Below, piece by piece: positions 1,749 through 53,392 of a stretch of DNA of 55,844 bases. A program made the position numbers and the translations under genes. Positions within the stretch are counted from its first letter, which is position 1, and every line of letters starts with the position of its first letter. Source of the stretch: a virus (Duplodnaviria; Heunggongvirae; Uroviricota; Caudoviricetes); IMG/VR virus record IMGVR_UViG_3300043119_000318; one strand, written 5' to 3'. The notes below the pieces were generated by a model. That model was not told where the DNA came from, searched no databases, and saw only the letters and a program-made list of their open reading frames with translations.

Positions 1749-2795
1749 TTAGTATGTTCCGCCGTCAACGGTGACAGAATCTAAAGTGGTTGCTGAAAGA
1801 ACTGTATTACTGTTCATTTTTATTGATTTACCAGAAGCTAAGTTAATATGTTCACTAGAAGTCCATGCCGCAGTAGAATTCACCCAATTGAATGTCTTGT
1901 CAGTGGCTCCTTTTAACGTGATGCCGCCGCCGTCGGCTGTAGTATCTGTTGGGCTTGCGACTGAACCAAGTTCAATATTTTTATCATCAACGGTTAAAGT
2001 CGTCGAGTTAACAGTGACGGTTGTACCATTAACAGTTAGGTCACCAGCGATTGTTACATCCCCGTTGGCATCAACGCTAAACTTAGTTCCACCGACTACC
2101 GTATATGTAGCATTAGTGTTAGCGTTTGTGATCGCCGCTGTGGTCATCGATGTATCAGAAGCGATTGCAGAAATAGCAACCGTTTGACCACCGATAGTGA
2201 TTGTGTCGCCGACGTTAAACGATCTAGTGAAGAACGTTCCTACACCAGTAACAGTAGTTCCAAGAGCAGAATTAGATACAGTTCCAATTCCAGCAGTTGG
2301 TTGTATTAATGCTATTCTATTGGTTCTTATGTAAAGTGGTGGATCGTTAACGAAAGTCAATCCCAATGTTCCATTGGTGACACCACCACCAAGGTGGTTT
2401 GGAGCACTAGTGCTAGAGCTTCCGGCAGTCGTGACTTCATAAAATCTAATGAATGGCTTTACAGTTCCGGTACCTGTGCCGGCAGCAGTAGCAGTAAATA
2501 TCGTGCCGGCAGTGCTAGAAGTGGCTCCGATCAGAGTGAAGTCTGTATTTCCGCTAACAACGATAGTGTATGTTTTACCTACTTGTATCGTTGTCGCCGC
2601 TGCAGCTGAATCTGCAGTAGCAGAAGATTCTAGAACATATAATATTCTACCTGTCGTGTATGCGGTAGATGCTTTCCAAGGATCAGCATAACTCACATCA
2701 GCTAAAATATCCGCATTCAGAGAAGCAAAGTTATTATCTATCTGCGTGTTAGATAATCCACCAGTTGTATTTGATCTAAGGGTTAATGATGCCAT
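1749..2795 (-). CDS. Tail fibre-like protein, 348 aa
   Basis: N-terminus (LTLR...LSNTQIDNNFASL) parallels the 842-aa fibre. It also has fibre-shaft segments (GDLTVNGTTVTVNSTTLTVDDKNIELG) and shared small modules. Confidence 0.7.
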   Translation of the reverse strand: MASLTLRSNTTGGLSNTQIDNNFASLNADILADVSYADPWKASTAYTTGRILYVLESSATADSAAAATTIQVGKTYTIVVSGNTDFTLIGATSSTAGTIFTATAAGTGTGTVKPFIRFYEVTTAGSSSTSAPNHLGGGVTNGTLGLTFVNDPPLYIRTNRIALIQPTAGIGTVSNSALGTTVTGVGTFFTRSFNVGDTITIGGQTVAISAIASDTSMTTAAITNANTNATYTVVGGTKFSVDANGDVTIAGDLTVNGTTVTVNSTTLTVDDKNIELGSVASPTDTTADGGGITLKGATDKTFNWVNSTAAWTSSEHINLASGKSIKMNSNTVLSATTLDSVTVDGGTY

Positions 2796-2861
2796 TTTTC
2801 TTCTTTGGTTAGATATTTATTATTTAGGCGGATATTATATGTTGACTGATCATTCGTTGTG

Positions 2862-4466
2862 TCAAAAATCGCCACTGATACCACCTGTTGGTCCGTCAGT
2901 TGCTTCGTAAACGTTTTTCTCTTCATTAATTATCGGGTCGATTACTGGTCCAGGGGGGAAAATTATACTTGGATTTGAGACAGCACTTAAATTGCCAGTT
3001 TGATCTGTTATATCATAAACTGGGGCGCCATAAACTTTAATCCAAGAATTCGTTCCTCGCACAAAAATAGAGTTAGCTGGCGCGTAATAAATTTGTTTAT
3101 TCGTATCCATCTGCGCAACACTTATTTTTGCTGATTCGCGCCAACCTTGCTCAGTCTTAACTTTTATTTTACTTGAAAATGTTGAGTTAAACCAAGCATA
3201 ACCAGGTCCACCTGGAGTTGCCGGTGCGGTGCTGGTCTTCATGCCGGCGCCACCGACGCCATACTGATACACTGGGTCCCACGACGGTGGTGCCCAATCT
3301 GTTGTTACTCCATAACCAGAAATGATACCAGATGTACCTGGACTGCCGCTAGAGGCACCAACATCTCGAGTTCCGGCAGCTTCTTGCGATGTTCCGGCAG
3401 CAGAAACACCACCATCACCACCAATCAATCCTCCGCCTCCGCCACCAGCACCGCCACCATCATATTTGTTAAGTTGACCAGCGCCTCCTCTACCTGGAAA
3501 TACATTTGTCGTCGTTCTAAGATTATTGGGTGATCTTGATGTTAAGATAACAGAATTACCGTTACTGATTTTAAATGCTAGACCTTCAGGTAGAGCTTGA
3601 TTGCCTGAATAAATACGAACAATATACCATCCAGCAGTGGCTATTGTTAATGTTTTGGAAGTTGGGTTAGGATTACCACTGGCTACTCTGATAAAAGCAG
3701 TAGAACCAGACACAATTATACCGGTATTGGTTGGAGTAAACGCATTCAATCCATCTATGCTAAAATCCGCATAGGTAATGCCAGTGTGTACATATGTTTC
3801 TAAATCTACTGTATACGTTCCAGCATCCAAAAATACATCATACGTAAGCGTGATCGTATTTCCAACGTTTTCATTTCCAACAAAATTTTCACTATCCCAA
3901 ACACCATAAGTTCGCAGAAACGTAGAACCACCGAAACTTAAATTAGAGACTGGGTAATATTTGTTTATTATTTTAGATGAATCTATATTAGTATATGGTG
4001 AGATAGTATATCCTCCGCTAAGGGCACCAGCACCACCACCGCCGCCACCACCGCCAGCAACAGCTATAGCAATTTTTTGCGAATTCACGATTTTGTATAT
4101 CACTGTCGCGCCGCCACCACCACCTCCGGCGCCGCTGGTTCCGAACCAGCCTGCTTGACCACCCATACCACCAGAAAAACCATCAAGTGATCTACCTCCG
4201 TCGCCGCGACCAAACCATTTACGCCCCCACTGTCCTGCACCACCACCGCCGCCGACAGCCACGTATACTGATTCATTTTTAGGTAAGATCAAATAACCAC
4301 TTAATATAGAACCAGCTTGACCATCACCGCCAGCTCGTACCTGTTTATATACGTCGTAGCCGCCGCCACCTCCGCCGCCGCCTCTAATGATGTACTGAAA
4401 TTTGCAGTCTTCTTGTGCAGTTATGCAGTAATTCTTAAAATAATCGTAAGCTAGTGATGACGGCAT
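2862..4466 (-). CDS. Glycine-rich fibre/receptor-binding-like protein, about 534 aa
   Basis: Several poly-Gly tracts flank a central domain. Start moved from 4484 to the ATG at 4464-4466, which lies just downstream of the upstream stop. Confidence 0.6.
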   Translation of the reverse strand: MPSSLAYDYFKNYCITAQEDCKFQYIIRGGGGGGGGYDVYKQVRAGGDGQAGSILSGYLILPKNESVYVAVGGGGGAGQWGRKWFGRGDGGRSLDGFSGGMGGQAGWFGTSGAGGGGGGATVIYKIVNSQKIAIAVAGGGGGGGGAGALSGGYTISPYTNIDSSKIINKYYPVSNLSFGGSTFLRTYGVWDSENFVGNENVGNTITLTYDVFLDAGTYTVDLETYVHTGITYADFSIDGLNAFTPTNTGIIVSGSTAFIRVASGNPNPTSKTLTIATAGWYIVRIYSGNQALPEGLAFKISNGNSVILTSRSPNNLRTTTNVFPGRGGAGQLNKYDGGGAGGGGGGLIGGDGGVSAAGTSQEAAGTRDVGASSGSPGTSGIISGYGVTTDWAPPSWDPVYQYGVGGAGMKTSTAPATPGGPGYAWFNSTFSSKIKVKTEQGWRESAKISVAQMDTNKQIYYAPANSIFVRGTNSWIKVYGAPVYDITDQTGNLSAVSNPSIIFPPGPVIDPIINEEKNVYEATDGPTGGISGDF

Positions 4467-49357: not shown

Positions 49358-49924
49358 TTATTTCAATTCTTTAACTTCGTCACACAATCCCCATTTCTTA
49401 GCTTCCTGAGCAGATAACCATACATCTTGAGCAGGAAGTAATACTTCTCTAATTTCAGAATCTGTTAATCCTGTACATTTCTTATAATGAGCAACCATTC
49501 GTTTTGTGGTCAAGTCGAATTCTTTAACTACCGCGAATAATTCATGTTCTTTACCAAAAGAACCAGAAGAATACTGATGCGAAAGAATAGAAGTATTCGG
49601 AGTTAGAATACGTTGACCTTTAGTTCCACTAATAAAAATTAGTAATCCGGAAGAAGAAATCTGCCCCAATCCAATAGTTCTAATTGGAATAGAAGATCCG
49701 CGCATGACATCAACCAGAGCGAATGCAGCGTTCAAATCTCCGCCAGGTGAACACACGATTAGATTTAATACACTAGGTCTTTCCTCAGAGAAATTCGAAG
49801 TGAAGATCCATTCAATGGTTTGTTTACATGTTTCTAAATTTATTTCTTCCATCAATAGAAAGAATGCGTGTCTTGATTCTACAGAATCATCAATTTTCAA
49901 CAGTCGATTCAGTGCAGTTAACAT
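49358..49924 (-). CDS. clpP: ClpP-like protease subunit, 188 aa
   Basis: SPGG, GQISSSG (nucleophile position), HQ and D.WLSAQEAKKWGLCDEV motifs match the ClpP layout. Confidence 0.85.
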   Translation of the reverse strand: MLTALNRLLKIDDSVESRHAFFLLMEEINLETCKQTIEWIFTSNFSEERPSVLNLIVCSPGGDLNAAFALVDVMRGSSIPIRTIGLGQISSSGLLIFISGTKGQRILTPNTSILSHQYSSGSFGKEHELFAVVKEFDLTTKRMVAHYKKCTGLTDSEIREVLLPAQDVWLSAQEAKKWGLCDEVKELK

Positions 49925-51221: not shown

Positions 51222-51647
51222 TTAGAACTTTACATTAAGCCCAACAGTTGTCAACATTCCATTATAATCATTGACGCGAGATTGCCCGATAAATCGTTCA
51301 ACACTAGCAACTGCGCTAACGTTCTTAGTGATGGTATAGGTTGCCTTGGCTCCGGCAGTCAAACCATATCCGTTAACACCACCAAGAGTATCCTGGAATA
51401 CTGCAGCGCCACCGGCAGACAGATTAACTGGTCCGACCTTGGTTAGTGCAAAATCCTTACCAACAGCATATCGATTATAGCGACCATCAACATGCGTTGC
51501 AGATGCAGTAAATCCCTTAAAATCAGTAGCTACACGATAGCCAACGCCATCGATTCCAGCATGATCATTAACCGCGGAAACAGTAACTTCCGCAGCAGTT
51601 GCGGCACCAGCCATAACGATCAATGCGATCATTGCAATTTTTTTCAT
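51222..51647 (-). CDS. Putative small outer-membrane beta-barrel protein, 141 aa
   Basis: Signal peptide ending AATA, alternating hydrophobic strands, C-terminal VGLNVKF with terminal Phe; RBS GGAG. Confidence 0.7.
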   Translation of the reverse strand: MKKIAMIALIVMAGAATAAEVTVSAVNDHAGIDGVGYRVATDFKGFTASATHVDGRYNRYAVGKDFALTKVGPVNLSAGGAAVFQDTLGGVNGYGLTAGAKATYTITKNVSAVASVERFIGQSRVNDYNGMLTTVGLNVKF

Positions 51648-51671
51648 AAAATCTCCAAAGTTAATAAAAGT

Positions 51672-51990
51672 GGTAGCTTATTCTGTTACGAGGAAAGCTA
51701 CCGAAACCCTAAGCAGTGTTTAGGCTGCTAATGCGACGTCAAAGACGCTGTCGTTTGCATTTACGTTGTTTTGCTTGATTTACGGTCATCGCCTACCGAG
51801 CAGCCTCGAAAGATACTTTACAGTCAATCGATTCCAGTTCACCCCCATCAAAAACACAGAAGTCCGTAAAGGGGACCTGTCTCTTGTATGTTCGCTAGTT
51901 GCGATCTGAAGCCAACATACCGTCTATCTGTGCTTTTGGTGGAGGTGGGGGCTTCGAAGCCCCGTCTTGTCCGGATTTTTCAATCTCGGT
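51672..51990 (-). ncRNA. ssrA: Circularly permuted (two-piece) tmRNA gene
   Basis: Acceptor piece ends CACCTCC-A-CCA (51947-51937). Coding piece starts GGGGGTG (51846-51840), giving a 7-bp acceptor stem with G3.U70. Tag frame 51758-51720 reads ANDSVFDVALAA*. Inter-piece pairings: TTG/CAA, ATCTTTCGA/TTGAAAAAT, CTCGGT/ACCGAG. Confidence 0.9.
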
Positions 51991-52609
51991 TTACTGCCAT
52001 TAAACGACCCCTGACTAATTTCTCAATCATAGGATCGGATTCTTTTAAATAAAAGTTTACACTTCCATCATTATACCAATGTCTGCCATATGCGTTATTG
52101 GATTTATTTTTATTCCTGTCTTTCCATTCTGTAGTAGTTATCCAACCTGTTGGAATATCCTTCAGTCGTTTTCTGTTAGTTAAATCTATAGCTGTTTCTT
52201 CAACACACCACTTAGAACCATATTGGGAATTTTTTATTCCTTGCTGATGGTTTCTTTCAGACATCGTTCTTTTTTTCTTAGCAATAGCTTCTGGCGTATT
52301 CGCTAATATAGCAACCTGCTTACGAAATTCTTCATTAACTGAAAAGTTATTTGCAGTTTTAATACCAGAAAATGGATTGCCATATTTATCAAGTCTAGCT
52401 TTCGCAGCTTCTGATTGCAGGCGTTTAACTAATTGTTCCTTAGATATTAAGCCAGAGAGACCCTGCCATGCAACGTAGTCTTGCCAGTGCCCATGTTCTT
52501 CAAAAAGTTTTCTATGTGCTTCGGCATGATCTTCAACAGTTAATTCTATTAAATTATCAGAATCATCGGTGCCGCCCATGTGTTTTGGAATTATATGATG
52601 TTTGTGCAT
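51980..52609 (-). CDS. HNH homing endonuclease, 209 aa
   Basis: HKHHIIPKHMGG.D..DNLI.LT.EDHAEAH motif and N..YG..W(Y) repeats in the C-terminal DNA-binding part; own late promoter and RBS AAGGAG. Confidence 0.9.
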   Translation of the reverse strand: MHKHHIIPKHMGGTDDSDNLIELTVEDHAEAHRKLFEEHGHWQDYVAWQGLSGLISKEQLVKRLQSEAAKARLDKYGNPFSGIKTANNFSVNEEFRKQVAILANTPEAIAKKKRTMSERNHQQGIKNSQYGSKWCVEETAIDLTNRKRLKDIPTGWITTTEWKDRNKNKSNNAYGRHWYNDGSVNFYLKESDPMIEKLVRGRLMAVNRD

Positions 52610-52628
52610 GAAATCTCCTTATTATAGT

Positions 52629-52636
52629 TATTTATA
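52629..52636 (-). promoter_or_regulatory. T4-type late promoter TATAAATA of the HNH gene
   Basis: Exact consensus about 20 nt upstream of the HNH ATG. Confidence 0.8.
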
Positions 52637-52649
52637 ATAATTCGATTTT

Positions 52650-52700
52650 CGGAATCGAACCGCCGTCCAGAACACTTTTTGATTCACTTCATACAACCAT
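52650..52700 (-). pseudogene. 5' remnant of a second tmRNA acceptor piece, truncated in the T-stem
   Basis: Minus strand reads GTTGTATGAAGTGAATCAAAAAGTGTTCTG-GAC-GGCGG-TTCGATT-CCG, then breaks off into the HNH leader. Confidence 0.7.
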
Positions 52701-52707
52701 AGTCACT

Positions 52708-52736
52708 ATTATACATCATAAAACCTTAAAAGTCAA
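52708..52736 (-). promoter_or_regulatory. Sigma70-type promoter upstream of the tmRNA remnant/HNH/tmRNA locus
   Basis: TTGACT-17 nt-TATAAT on the minus strand. Confidence 0.85.
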
Positions 52737-53392
52737 ATTTTGTATTGCTTCTTGTACTGAGCGCGAAGTTTACAAAATTCACTAATCCAAGTGTCTCTCT
52801 TCTCCATGAAAAGAAGAGGATTGTCATTATCAACTGCCATCATTACTGCAAGATGACCAACAGGAATTCCTGTTCTTTCTTCAAACGCAACTGCATACGC
52901 TGCAGTTTGCATAAAGTACCCATGAATGTCATCACGGTATTTAACCTTGCTTGAAGTCTTAAAGTCAATGACGCACAACTTACCACGAAACTCTGCAATG
53001 CAATCTACTGTCCCTGCAACTTCCAAGTGATCAGAATAAAGAGGAGTCTCAAGTGCATGTATGTTATCTATCTCAGAAATAAGAGGGATTATGCTGTTAA
53101 ACATATCCTGATCAAACATGTCTGGCTTGACTGGCTTTCCGAGTAGATAATCTTCGCAGAACGAGTGTATACGAGTTCCTCTCCTGGACGCTCGAGAAGA
53201 GATTTTATTCGCTTCTTCATTTCCAACTCGCTTTCGCCACTCCATAATGGCTTGTATACCAAGCAATCCGGTAACGGTAGTAACGGATGGATAGGCTCTA
53301 CCCGTTGGAGTGTTGTAAACACGCGACCCGTTATCGGCAGTTGCACGTGAGATTTGGGGAATATCATGATGTATAAATGTTTTCATTTCCAA
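52733..53392 (-). CDS. PD-(D/E)XK exonuclease (Cas4-like superfamily), 219 aa
   Basis: YPSVTTV, RGT..H..CE.YL, E..LYS....AG.VDCIAE..G.L.VIDFKTS and Q..AYA motifs. Confidence 0.85.
   Translation of the reverse strand: MEMKTFIHHDIPQISRATADNGSRVYNTPTGRAYPSVTTVTGLLGIQAIMEWRKRVGNEEANKISSRASRRGTRIHSFCEDYLLGKPVKPDMFDQDMFNSIIPLISEIDNIHALETPLYSDHLEVAGTVDCIAEFRGKLCVIDFKTSSKVKYRDDIHGYFMQTAAYAVAFEERTGIPVGHLAVMMAVDNDNPLLFMEKRDTWISEFCKLRAQYKKQYKI

What the first reader, a model, noticed from the sequence alone, without database searches (positions are those of the whole stretch)
51672..51990. Phage-encoded circularly permuted two-piece tmRNA
The tRNA-like 3' end (…CACCTCCACCA) precedes the 5' end (GGGGGTG…) in transcription order. 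The acceptor stem has the alanine G3.U70 pair, and the tag frame reads ANDSVFDVALAA*. Three inter-piece helices are visible. Permuted tmRNAs are established for alphaproteobacteria, some cyanobacteria and some betaproteobacteria. Protein-only annotation would miss this gene, and its type is a clue to the host.
Basis: partly seen in the sequence, partly recalled or inferred. Interest (0 to 1): 0.85.

Follow-up and report, generated by a model that had tools for sequence, protein, structure and literature searches.

The report
Phage two-piece tmRNA, endonuclease-linked allele
A large T4-like phage carries a real split (circularly permuted) ribosome-rescue RNA gene, a kind already known in phages; this copy is a divergent version that sits beside a selfish endonuclease gene and is missed by the standard tRNA/tmRNA finder.

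Summary
On the minus strand, 51998-51663 is a circularly permuted tmRNA gene. It scores 127 bits on Rfam tmRNA_permuted and 94 bits on beta_tmRNA. It has a G3.U70 acceptor stem, A73-CCA, a 90-nt spacer and the tag ANDSVFDVALAA*. The window is a T4-like myophage.

Sixty-one of 80 uncultured relatives carry a homologous tmRNA at the same place. Their helices covary and the tag frame AND..(F/Y)ALAA is preserved.

The kind is known. Melnitz and the pelagimyophages carry alpha-type genes. Cultured Stenotrophomonas phage Marzo has an annotated gene that scores as beta-type. This scan has also reported the same kind on other DNA many times. So this is a new member of a known kind, and its type is only a weak clue to the host.

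The twist is that this allele is a mosaic. Its tRNA-like domain is divergent and has a 6-nt T loop, while its tag module is canonical. Upstream lie an HNH homing-endonuclease gene and a truncated remnant of the clade's canonical tmRNA, cut in the T arm. Homologous endonucleases elsewhere are always followed by similarly aberrant tmRNA alleles, all of which ARAGORN misses. This suggests the endonuclease drives replacement by a cleavage-immune allele. Function, processing and host remain untested.

The parts
51937..51998 (-). Acceptor piece of the intact tmRNA. It holds the 5' strands of the inter-piece helices; the T arm GGGGC (51963-51959), UUCGAA (51958-51953), GCCCC (51952-51948); the acceptor 3' strand CACCUCC (51947-51941); and the encoded A73-CCA (51940-51937).
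   Evidence: Rfam alignments and sequence. The same T arm occurs in two independent IMG/VR contigs, L205 and L206.
51847..51936 (-). Intervening spacer, presumably excised. Its two ends pair (AAAGCACAGA with UCUGUGUUUUU) and extend the acceptor stem in the precursor.
   Evidence: Across 48 distinct homologues the spacer varies from 26 to 177 nt and is not conserved in sequence, but its ends are complementary (mean run 9.8 vs 5.1 for shuffles). The MFE fold agrees.
51663..51846 (-). Coding piece. It holds the 5' acceptor strand GGGGGUG (51846-51840), the D-loop analogue GGAAUCGA, the P2 strands, the PK1 hairpin CGGU/ACCG (51798-51783), the tag frame, the 3' hairpin GGUAGCU/AGCUACC (51702-51672) and a U-rich tail.
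   Evidence: The 3' hairpin covaries among relatives.
51720..51758 (-). Tag reading frame ANDSVFDVALAA plus the UAA stop. The resume codon GCA is at 51758-51756.
   Evidence: Direct translation. Relatives encode AND..(F/Y)ALAA. The window has an in-frame 6-nt insertion.
51980..52609 (-). HNH homing-endonuclease gene (209 aa). Its last 19 nt overlap the start of the acceptor piece.
   Evidence: Pfam HNH 22.5 bits against a cut-off of 21.4. PHROG 655 homing endonuclease, E 9e-16. Homologues at 39-83% identity are all followed by a tmRNA.
52650..52698 (-). Remnant of the clade's canonical acceptor piece (GGUUGUAUGAAG...GGACGGCGG-UUCGAUU-CCG), truncated in the 3' strand of the T stem.
   Evidence: Rfam RF00023 partial match, 24.5 bits, E 2e-8 in a 201-nt search. 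Alignment to canonical relatives.
52708..52736 (-). Sigma-70-type promoter (TTGACT-17-TATAAT, 11 of 12 matches) that drives the canonical tmRNA in relatives. Here it drives only the remnant.
   Evidence: Promoter scan. The position is conserved directly after the exonuclease gene in relatives.
52629..52659 (-). Terminator-like hairpin formed by the remnant's T loop and its complement (UUCGAUU-ccgaa-AAUCGAA, then UUAUUAU). It overlaps a T4-type late-promoter motif, TATAAATA (52636-52629), upstream of the endonuclease RBS (52620-52615).
   Evidence: Sequence. The same arrangement, with covarying arms (UGCGAUU/AAUCGCA plus UUUUU), is seen in L208-L212.
52733..53392 (-). PD-(D/E)XK exonuclease gene. 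It is the conserved upstream neighbour used as a synteny anchor.
   Evidence: PHROG 298, E 1e-68. Pfam PDDEXK_1. About 600 relatives in IMG/VR.
49358..49924 (-). ClpP-family peptidase gene on the same strand, 1.7 kb downstream of the tmRNA.
   Evidence: Pfam CLP_protease, 100 bits. A homologue lies 1.1-3.4 kb downstream of the tmRNA in 55 of 80 related loci.

Best explanation
Window 51998-51663 (minus strand) is a genuine, probably functional, circularly permuted tmRNA (ssrA) gene of an uncultured T4-like myophage.

Inferred mechanism, by analogy with bacterial two-piece tmRNAs (Caulobacter; Keiler et al. 2000, cited in PMC9004378):
1. A single precursor folds so that the 3' trailer after CCA pairs with the leader before G1.
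2. Host tRNA-processing enzymes excise the 90-nt spacer.
3. The 62-nt acceptor piece and the roughly 180-nt coding piece stay together through the acceptor stem and the P2 helices.
4. Host AlaRS charges the RNA through G3.U70 and A73.
5. Host SmpB delivers it to stalled ribosomes. Five complete relatives encode no SmpB.
6. Translation resumes at GCA and appends ANDSVFDVALAA. The ALAA end of this tag is a ClpXP-type degron, and a phage ClpP gene lies 1.7 kb downstream.

The likely benefit is to keep ribosomes free while host and phage mRNAs are being cut during infection.

This particular allele is a mosaic. A divergent tRNA-like module, made of the acceptor piece, the spacer and the first ~50 nt of the coding piece, is joined to a canonical tag module. 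The mosaic sits directly downstream of an HNH homing-endonuclease gene and a truncated remnant of the canonical gene. I infer that the endonuclease cuts canonical alleles in the T arm. Repair would then copy in the endonuclease gene together with this cleavage-resistant tRNA-like module.
For: Shown:
- Rfam scores are 127.4 and 93.7 bits, both above the gathering scores.
- G3.U70, A73-CCA, the T arm and the tag frame can be read directly from the sequence.
- 61 of 80 relatives found through the neighbouring exonuclease carry a homologue at the same position.
- In 51 distinct sequences the acceptor and T stems are 100% paired. They include double compensatory changes, and G.U is invariant.
- RNAalifold finds 18 of 29 predicted pairs with compensatory changes.
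- The spacer is variable but its ends pair.
- The MFE z-score is -4.49.
- The tag frame is kept in all relatives and ends in ALAA. The window's 6-nt insertion is in frame.
- No SmpB (PF01668) was found in 5 complete relatives.
- ClpP synteny holds in 55 of 80 loci.

Mosaic and endonuclease link:
- The 3' module is 82-88% identical to canonical alleles. The tRNA-like module is only 44-62% identical to them, but 80-86% identical to L044.
- The 6-nt T loop is identical in two independent contigs.
- Relative to L044, the T stem differs by three double compensatory changes.
- Endonuclease homologues at 39-83% identity are each followed by a tmRNA. Most are preceded by an acceptor remnant cut in the T loop.
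- L044, L205 and L206 keep only the last 27-29 codons of the endonuclease gene.
- The endonuclease's C-terminal half recurs in GIY-YIG enzymes (L238, L242). Those that could be checked (L238, L240) also sit beside tmRNAs.
Against: - No expression, processing, charging or tagging data exist.
- The T loop has 6 nt (UUCGAA) instead of the 7 nt seen in all ~48 canonical relatives. The MFE fold closes it into a 6-bp stem with a tetraloop, which could impair T-loop function.
- ARAGORN rejects this allele and every other endonuclease-linked allele.
- The beta_tmRNA score is only 10 bits above its gathering score.
- A convincing promoter for the intact gene is lacking. The TTGAGA-16-TTTAAT motif ends immediately before the first base of the mature 5' helix, so the gene may depend on read-through and processing.
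- Endonuclease cleavage of the canonical T arm is inferred from gene arrangement alone.
Confidence: 0.85

Rival explanations
1. The gene is a decaying or altered tmRNA. Invasion by the endonuclease left a tRNA-like domain with a defective 6-nt T loop. The RNA no longer supports trans-translation. It is either a pseudogene or acts as a decoy that competes with host tmRNA for SmpB or AlaRS.
For: - The T loop has 6 nt, and the MFE fold gives a 6-bp stem with a tetraloop.
- ARAGORN misses all endonuclease-linked alleles.
- No clear promoter of its own was found.
- A CDS-less phage tmRNA (DS6A) is reported to inhibit the endogenous tmRNA in E. coli (PMC11915505).
Against: - The tag frame, resume codon, stop, G3.U70 and CCA are all intact.
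- The T stem has been kept at 5 bp through three double compensatory changes relative to L044.
- The identical tRNA-like module persists in independent contigs joined to a different tag module, ANDEMFALAA in L205. That indicates survival through recombination.
- 6-nt T loops recur in three distinct endonuclease-linked alleles. This looks like a selected trait, not random decay.
Confidence: 0.1
2. The RNA is made and tags proteins, but its main role is not ribosome rescue. [quoted passage not shown]
For: - tmRNA-ClpP synteny is conserved in 55 of 80 loci.
- The tag ends in the ALAA degron.
- This idea is discussed for Melnitz in PMC9004378.
Against: Nothing in the sequence separates this from ordinary rescue. 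No ClpX or SmpB is encoded in the relatives searched (SmpB). The mechanism is the same trans-translation.
Confidence: 0.04
3. The stretch is host-derived debris, for example an attachment-site copy of a bacterial tmRNA gene picked up by a temperate element, and not a phage gene.
For: tmRNA genes are common integration sites, and fragments of them occur in prophages (PMC9004378, PMC4383910).
Against: - The gene is complete, not a fragment.
- No integrase was found among the annotated neighbours, and the context is a lytic T4-type genome.
- The gene is syntenic in 61 relatives, including complete terminal-repeat genomes.
- The nearest bacterial tmRNAs found are distant: at most 78 bits by nhmmer, against 100-190 bits or more among the phages.
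Confidence: 0.01

Closest known systems
Betaproteobacterial two-piece tmRNA (Rfam RF01850; third permuted lineage, Sharkady & Williams 2004 as cited in PMC9004378)
   Same: - The gene order is the same: acceptor piece, spacer, coding piece.
- It scores above the family's gathering score.
- It has the same PK1 hairpin and leader (CGGUAGGCGA.GACCGUAAAUC.AGCAAA) as an unnamed 2.0-Mb Burkholderiales genome, G071.
- The tag is of the ANDE.FALAA type.
- It has a long-looped 3' hairpin.
   Different: - It is encoded by a phage.
- The score is only 94 bits, against 169-296 bits for the bacterial members sampled.
- The tRNA-like domain is divergent and has a 6-nt T loop.
- The model's last hairpin is poorly matched.
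Two-piece tmRNAs of Methylophilales phage Melnitz and Pelagibacter phages HTVC008M and Mosig (PMC9004378)
   Same: - These are T4-like aquatic myophages, the closest cultured relatives by gp6 at ~37% aa identity.
- Each carries a complete permuted ssrA.
- None has an integrase.
- The roles proposed for the gene are the same.
   Different: - Those genes are alpha-type (RF01849) and lie elsewhere in the genome.
- Melnitz has a glutamine riboswitch after ssrA. None is present here.
- ARAGORN finds Melnitz's gene but not this one.
Annotated tmRNA of Stenotrophomonas phage Marzo and other Menderavirus phages
   Same: It is a cultured T4-like phage with a permuted tmRNA that scores as beta-type (RF01850 94.6 bits, RF04321 119 bits). 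An HNH endonuclease gene lies nearby in the tRNA cluster.
   Different: DNA similarity is limited to the ~50-nt T-arm/acceptor region. The genomic context differs (a tRNA cluster). There is no remnant-endonuclease-gene arrangement.
Canonical tmRNA of the window's own uncultured phage clade (e.g. L065, L037, G001, G002)
   Same: - The locus is the same, directly after the exonuclease gene.
- The tag module and 3' hairpin are the same, at 82-88% identity.
- ClpP lies downstream in both.
   Different: - The canonical alleles have a 7-nt T loop.
- They score 108-163 bits on RF01850.
- ARAGORN detects them.
- They are driven directly by the consensus promoter.
- The window's tRNA-like module is only 44-62% identical to theirs.
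Free-standing homing endonucleases of T4-like phages with intron-less homing (T4 SegB in the tRNA gene region; cited from memory and from scan notes)
   Same: - The endonuclease gene is free-standing and sits beside a structured-RNA gene.
- It has a late-promoter motif.
- It is present or absent among close relatives.
- Flanking sequence appears to have been co-converted (a mosaic allele).
- Nuclease domains have been swapped (HNH vs GIY-YIG) on a shared C-terminal module.
   Different: Here the cassette appears to carry a replacement tRNA-like domain for the target gene and leaves a truncated 5' remnant. Cleavage has not been shown.

Membership tests
Circularly permuted (two-piece) tmRNA | The 3' tRNA-like half ending in CCA is encoded upstream of the 5' half on the same strand, with a spacer between them. 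| tested here: met
   Acceptor piece 51998-51937, spacer 51936-51847, coding piece from 51846.
Circularly permuted (two-piece) tmRNA | Score above the curated threshold of the covariance model (RF04321). | tested here: met
   127.4 bits against a gathering score of 47, E 1.3e-24, full-length model match 1-213.
Circularly permuted (two-piece) tmRNA | Alanine identity: a 7-bp acceptor stem with G3.U70 and discriminator A73, then CCA. | tested here: met
   GGGGGUG pairs with CACCUCC, followed by A-CCA. G.U is invariant in 51 of 51 distinct homologues, and pair 5 covaries between GC and AU.
Circularly permuted (two-piece) tmRNA | T arm with a 5-bp stem and the usual 7-nt T loop. | tested here: inconclusive
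   The stem GGGGC/GCCCC is intact, but the loop is UUCGAA (6 nt). All canonical relatives have 7 nt. The same 6-nt loop occurs in L205 and L206, so it is not an assembly error.
Circularly permuted (two-piece) tmRNA | Short tag reading frame that starts at an alanine resume codon, ends in a hydrophobic ALAA-type degron and is followed by a stop. | tested here: met
   ANDSVFDVALAA-UAA at 51758-51720. Relatives encode AND..(F/Y)ALAA.
Circularly permuted (two-piece) tmRNA | Helices that hold the two pieces together, supported by covariation. | tested here: met
   The terminal helix (columns 1-6 with 241-246) and the acceptor stem show compensatory changes. Eighteen of 29 predicted pairs covary.
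Circularly permuted (two-piece) tmRNA | The precursor is processed into two RNAs, is charged with alanine, binds SmpB and tags proteins. | not testable with these tools
   No RNA data are available. The only support is indirect: the spacer ends pair as in tRNA-like precursors.
Beta-type permuted tmRNA (RF01850) | Best-scoring clan member is RF01850, above its gathering score. | tested here: met
   93.7 bits against 84. Clade relatives score 108-163 bits. Melnitz, HTVC008M and Mosig score best as alpha-type.
Beta-type permuted tmRNA (RF01850) | Descent from, or close similarity to, a betaproteobacterial host tmRNA. | tested here: inconclusive
   Only 4 of 151 sampled genomes of the order carry the type. 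The best bacterial match, G071, gives 34 bits to the window's gene and 78 bits to the canonical allele. No organism names are available.
HNH homing endonuclease (free-standing) | HNH catalytic motif. | tested here: met
   Pfam PF01844, 22.5 bits against a cut-off of 21.4, residues 2-33. PHROG 655, E 9e-16.
HNH homing endonuclease (free-standing) | Sporadic presence or absence at one locus among related genomes, with traces of gain and loss. | tested here: met
   The gene is absent from the other 79 of the 80 loci and reduced to a 27-codon stub in the 80th, L044. It is present in L208-L215, always beside a tmRNA. Stubs of 27-29 codons are left in L044, L205 and L206.
HNH homing endonuclease (free-standing) | Site-specific cleavage of the endonuclease-free allele and resistance of its own allele. 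| not testable with these tools
   Inferred only, from the remnant break points in the T loop/T stem and from the altered T arms of the linked alleles.

The most novel reading that the evidence does not exclude
The window's tmRNA would be the 'immunity allele' of a homing cassette for an RNA gene. A family of endonucleases, with HNH or GIY-YIG heads on a shared C-terminal DNA-binding module, recognises the conserved T arm of phage tmRNA genes. It spreads together with a replacement tRNA-like domain whose T arm is altered, repeatedly by shortening the T loop to 6 nt. The target gene therefore stays functional but can no longer be cut. The truncated 5' remnant, with its promoter, would serve as the left homology arm, and the conserved tag module as the right arm. 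If true, this would also show that trans-translation tolerates a 6-nt T loop.
Probability: 0.45. Interest if true: 0.6.

Novelty: new member of a known kind. Interest (0 to 1): 0.35.

Why it matters
On its own the gene adds little. It is one more phage-encoded two-piece tmRNA, in a large uncultured clade of 160-170 kb T4-like phages where the gene is syntenic with an exonuclease and a ClpP gene.

Three points have some practical or conceptual value:

1. ARAGORN-based annotation, including the phage survey in PMC9004378, will systematically miss endonuclease-linked alleles such as this one. Phage tmRNA counts are therefore underestimates, and Infernal with RF04321 should be used.
2. The type of a phage tmRNA (alpha or beta) is not a dependable host marker.
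3. The locus offers a compact natural experiment. It can show which tRNA-like-domain changes a tmRNA tolerates, such as the 6-nt T loop. It can also show how selfish endonucleases invade an RNA gene without destroying it.

Tried and rejected
- ARAGORN on the window found no gene. This is a detector failure, not evidence against the gene, because ARAGORN also misses every endonuclease-linked allele while finding the canonical ones.
- blastn of the locus against 50,697 phage records gave no match. A canonical relative matched only ~50 nt of the T arm/acceptor region in Stenotrophomonas, Pseudomonas and other phages.
- Group I intron reading: remnant exon, then an intron carrying the endonuclease gene, then a 3' exon CC-CACCUCCACCA. 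I rejected it for four reasons. No Intron_gpI or other ribozyme match appears at E<=1. Outside the ORF, only ~40 nt lie between the remnant and the start codon, and the ORF's end abuts a complete second acceptor piece. The second acceptor piece, not the remnant, is complementary to the coding piece. L044, L205 and L206 carry the second piece without the endonuclease.
- A glutamine riboswitch as in Melnitz is absent here and present in Melnitz.
- Phage SmpB was not found in 5 complete relatives. The window itself was not searched with a profile.
- Host inference gave no clear answer:
  - An exact-pattern scan of bacterial genomes returned mostly Rhodocyclaceae and unrelated one-piece tmRNAs, all distant.
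  - A sample of 151 genomes of the order plus 41 of one family gave one unnamed low-GC 2-Mb genome as the best match.
  - That genome lacks hexulose-phosphate synthase. The AMO search found nothing either, but nothing rang in its control genomes, so it shows nothing. The genome could not be named.
  - Literature searches on Polynucleobacter and tmRNA gave nothing useful.
- The paper by Sharkady & Williams (PMC516066) is not held.
- The candidate promoter P2 (TTGAGA-16-TTTAAT, 52026-51999) is not accepted as shown. It ends directly at the first base of the mature 5' helix and was not called by the promoter scan.

Full report
**1. Observation**

Reading the minus strand gives the following layout.

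- The acceptor piece GGCAG...GACGGGGCUUCGAAGCCCC-CACCUCC-A-CCA lies at 51998-51937.
- A 90-nt spacer follows at 51936-51847.
- The coding piece starts with GGGGGUG at 51846.
- The two strands form a 7-bp acceptor stem with G3.U70 and discriminator A73.
- From the GCA at 51758 the frame reads ANDSVFDVALAA and stops at UAA, 51722-51720.
- A 7-bp hairpin with a long loop ends at 51672 and is followed by ACUUUUAUU.

Rfam supports the call. RF04321 (tmRNA_permuted) scores 127.4 bits against a gathering score of 47, and RF01850 (beta_tmRNA) scores 93.7 bits against 84. Both are full-length matches with E-values of 1e-24 to 1e-27. The MFE of the 339-nt precursor has a z-score of -4.49 and recovers the T hairpin, the acceptor stem and the 3' hairpin. 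ARAGORN reports nothing.

**2. Context**

The window is part of a T4-like myophage. It carries gp6-, gp7-, gp5-, gp19-, gp48- and gp25-type baseplate and tail genes, endolysins and a ClpP-type peptidase. The closest cultured phages by gp6 are Pelagibacter phages HTVC008M and Mosig and Methylophilales phage Melnitz, at only ~37% identity. No host genome is held.

I used the PD-(D/E)XK exonuclease gene directly upstream (52733-53392) as an anchor. IMG/VR holds about 600 relatives, including complete 160-170 kb genomes with terminal repeats.

**3. A conserved gene in the clade**

Sixty-one of the 80 best loci carry a homologous tmRNA just after the exonuclease gene. It usually starts about 7 nt after a consensus sigma-70 promoter that overlaps the exonuclease stop codon.

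Evidence for a conserved structure:

- Across 51 distinct sequences, every acceptor-stem and T-stem pair is a standard pair.
- G3.U70 never varies.
- Pair 5:68 switches between G-C and A-U.
- Four T-stem positions show several double changes.
- RNAalifold on 11 diverse members finds compensatory changes in 18 of 29 predicted pairs. These include the terminal helix that joins the two pieces.
- Spacers vary from 26 to 177 nt and are not conserved, yet their ends are complementary (mean run 9.8 against 5.1 for shuffles). That is what is expected of a segment that is looped out and excised.

Evidence for a translated tag: all tags read AND..(F/Y)ALAA, with synonymous and conservative variation. 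The window's extra Asp-Val is an in-frame 6-nt insertion.

These patterns indicate selection on both the RNA structure and the tag.

**4. Type and prior knowledge**

The clade's genes, including the window's, score best as beta-type (RF01850, up to 163 bits). Melnitz, HTVC008M and Mosig score best as alpha-type, and only Melnitz has the glutamine riboswitch.

Phage two-piece tmRNAs are established. PMC9004378 reports one in Melnitz and counts 53 ARAGORN-predicted two-piece genes among 18,146 phage genomes, mostly aquatic. PMC11915505 lists 79 phage tmRNAs and introduces RF04321. The cultured Stenotrophomonas phage Marzo has an annotated tmRNA that scores as beta-type here. This scan has already reported the same kind in many other genomes, including follow-ups with the same verdict. 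The finding is therefore a new member of a known kind.

The tmRNA type does not track the host. Melnitz carries an alpha type in a betaproteobacterial host, and Marzo carries a beta type in Stenotrophomonas.

My own host search was inconclusive. Only 4 of 151 sampled genomes of the order that contains Thauera carry the beta type. The nearest is an unnamed 2.0-Mb genome with a 40% GC locus. It gives 78 bits to a canonical phage allele and 34 bits to the window's allele.

**5. What is special about this allele**

The window's gene is not the canonical one.

*Mosaic structure.* From the PK1 hairpin to the 3' hairpin, the window's gene is 82-88% identical to canonical alleles. Its acceptor piece and the first ~50 nt of its coding piece are only 44-62% identical to them, but 80-86% identical to one other contig, L044.

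*T arm.* The T arm is GGGGC-UUCGAA-GCCCC, with a 6-nt loop. The same sequence occurs in two independent contigs, L205 and L206, so it is not an assembly error. Relative to L044 (UCGGG-UUCGAAC-CCCGA), three stem pairs changed on both sides. A 5-bp T stem has therefore been maintained.

*Upstream arrangement*, in order:

1. The consensus promoter (52736-52708).
2. The first 49 nt of a canonical acceptor piece, cut after UUCGAUU-CCG (52698-52650).
3. A hairpin made of that T loop and its complement, followed by UUAUUAU.
4. A TATAAATA late-promoter motif.
5. An RBS.
6. A 209-aa HNH endonuclease gene (52609-51980), whose last 19 nt overlap the intact acceptor piece.

*Endonuclease homologues.* Homologues at 83%, 58%, 41% and 39% identity (L208-L215) are all followed at once by a tmRNA.

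- In L208-L212 the endonuclease is preceded by an acceptor remnant broken in the T loop, followed by a covarying terminator-like hairpin and a late-promoter motif.
- In L213-L215 the endonuclease sits inside the spacer.

*Traces of loss.* L044, L205 and L206 keep only the last 27-29 codons of the endonuclease gene. In L044 the junction lies at a short repeat (GAAGYGAA / GAAGUGUAA). This fits loss of the gene by deletion.

*Domain swap.* The C-terminal half of the protein recurs in SegE-type GIY-YIG enzymes (L238, L242). L238, and L240 with the same C-terminal module, sit just upstream of tmRNAs.

*T loops and detection.* Three of the five distinct endonuclease-linked alleles have 6-nt T loops. 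None of the ~48 canonical sequences does. ARAGORN misses all the linked alleles and finds the canonical ones.

I read this as intron-less homing. The enzyme targets the conserved T arm, and repair copies in the endonuclease gene plus a resistant tRNA-like module. The remnant would act as the left homology arm and the tag module as the right arm. Cleavage itself is inferred, not shown.

**6. Mechanism and confidence**

*Shown:* gene anatomy, conservation, covariation, mosaicism, and the absence of SmpB in five complete relatives. ClpP lies 1.1-3.4 kb downstream in 55 of 80 loci.

*Inferred from the established biology of two-piece tmRNAs and trans-translation:* excision of the spacer by host tRNA-processing enzymes, alanylation through G3.U70, delivery by host SmpB, tagging with ANDSVFDVALAA, and ClpXP-type degradation, possibly using the phage ClpP.

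*Open points:*

- whether a 6-nt T loop is compatible with function;
- which promoter serves the intact gene, since the TTGAGA-16-TTTAAT motif abuts the mature 5' end, so read-through and processing may be needed;
- the host.

I put 0.85 on a genuine and functional two-piece tmRNA, about 0.1 on a crippled or decoy RNA, and about 0.45 on the full immunity-allele homing model.

**7. Verdict**

The kind is known, so interest is modest. The endonuclease-linked, ARAGORN-invisible mosaic allele with a shortened T loop is the part worth a bench test.

Noticed in passing
window 51980-52736 (minus strand): The order is: promoter, truncated canonical acceptor piece, terminator-like hairpin built from the T loop and its complement, TATAAATA late-promoter motif, HNH endonuclease gene, then the intact divergent tmRNA. 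The same architecture recurs with covarying hairpin arms in L208-L212.
   Followed up: yes
L213-L215 (about 2400-3250): A 39%-identical HNH homologue lies inside the spacer between the acceptor and coding pieces of a very divergent permuted tmRNA. That tmRNA has the acceptor stem GGGGCAG/CUGCUCC and the 6-nt T loop UUCAUC, and it scores below the Rfam gathering thresholds.
   Followed up: partly
L238:1982-2794, L242:1964-2869, L240: SegE-type GIY-YIG endonucleases share the C-terminal ~100 residues of the window's HNH enzyme. L238 and L240 also sit directly upstream of tmRNA genes. This looks like a nuclease-domain swap on a common, presumably DNA-binding, module.
   Followed up: partly
window 49358-49924 and 55 of 80 related loci: A ClpP-family peptidase gene (Pfam, 100 bits) lies on the same strand 1.1-3.4 kb downstream of the tmRNA throughout the clade. 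No SmpB was found in five complete relatives.
   Followed up: partly
L205:943-2400 (minus strand): A different phage carries the identical divergent tRNA-like module joined to another tag module (ANDEMFALAA). It is preceded by a 29-codon stub of the endonuclease gene, a 210-aa ORF and a 117-aa ORF that I did not search against any family. This is evidence for module shuffling and endonuclease loss.
   Followed up: partly
L029 (acceptor end), L017 (tag): One relative encodes CCU instead of CCA at the acceptor end. Another has a longer tag, ANDAFFGEVRLAA.
   Followed up: no
L252 / L279 (handle G071, C1:1217528-1217857): An unnamed 2.0-Mb Burkholderiales genome with a ~40% GC locus has the bacterial beta-type tmRNA closest to the phage clade. 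Its tag is ANDENFALAA and its PK1 region is near-identical. It lacks hexulose-phosphate synthase; a search for ammonia monooxygenase also found nothing, but its controls were silent, so that result shows nothing. Two small-genome relatives (G181, G182) also match.
   Followed up: partly
L212:485-4642: The contig with the 41%-identical endonuclease has its tmRNA embedded in a cluster of at least 12 tRNA genes.
   Followed up: no
window 51222-51647 (minus strand): A 141-aa secreted protein gene starts 16 nt after the tmRNA's U-rich tail. It has a weak YfaZ-like match, below the Pfam cut-off. The first gene downstream of the tmRNA differs among relatives.
   Followed up: no
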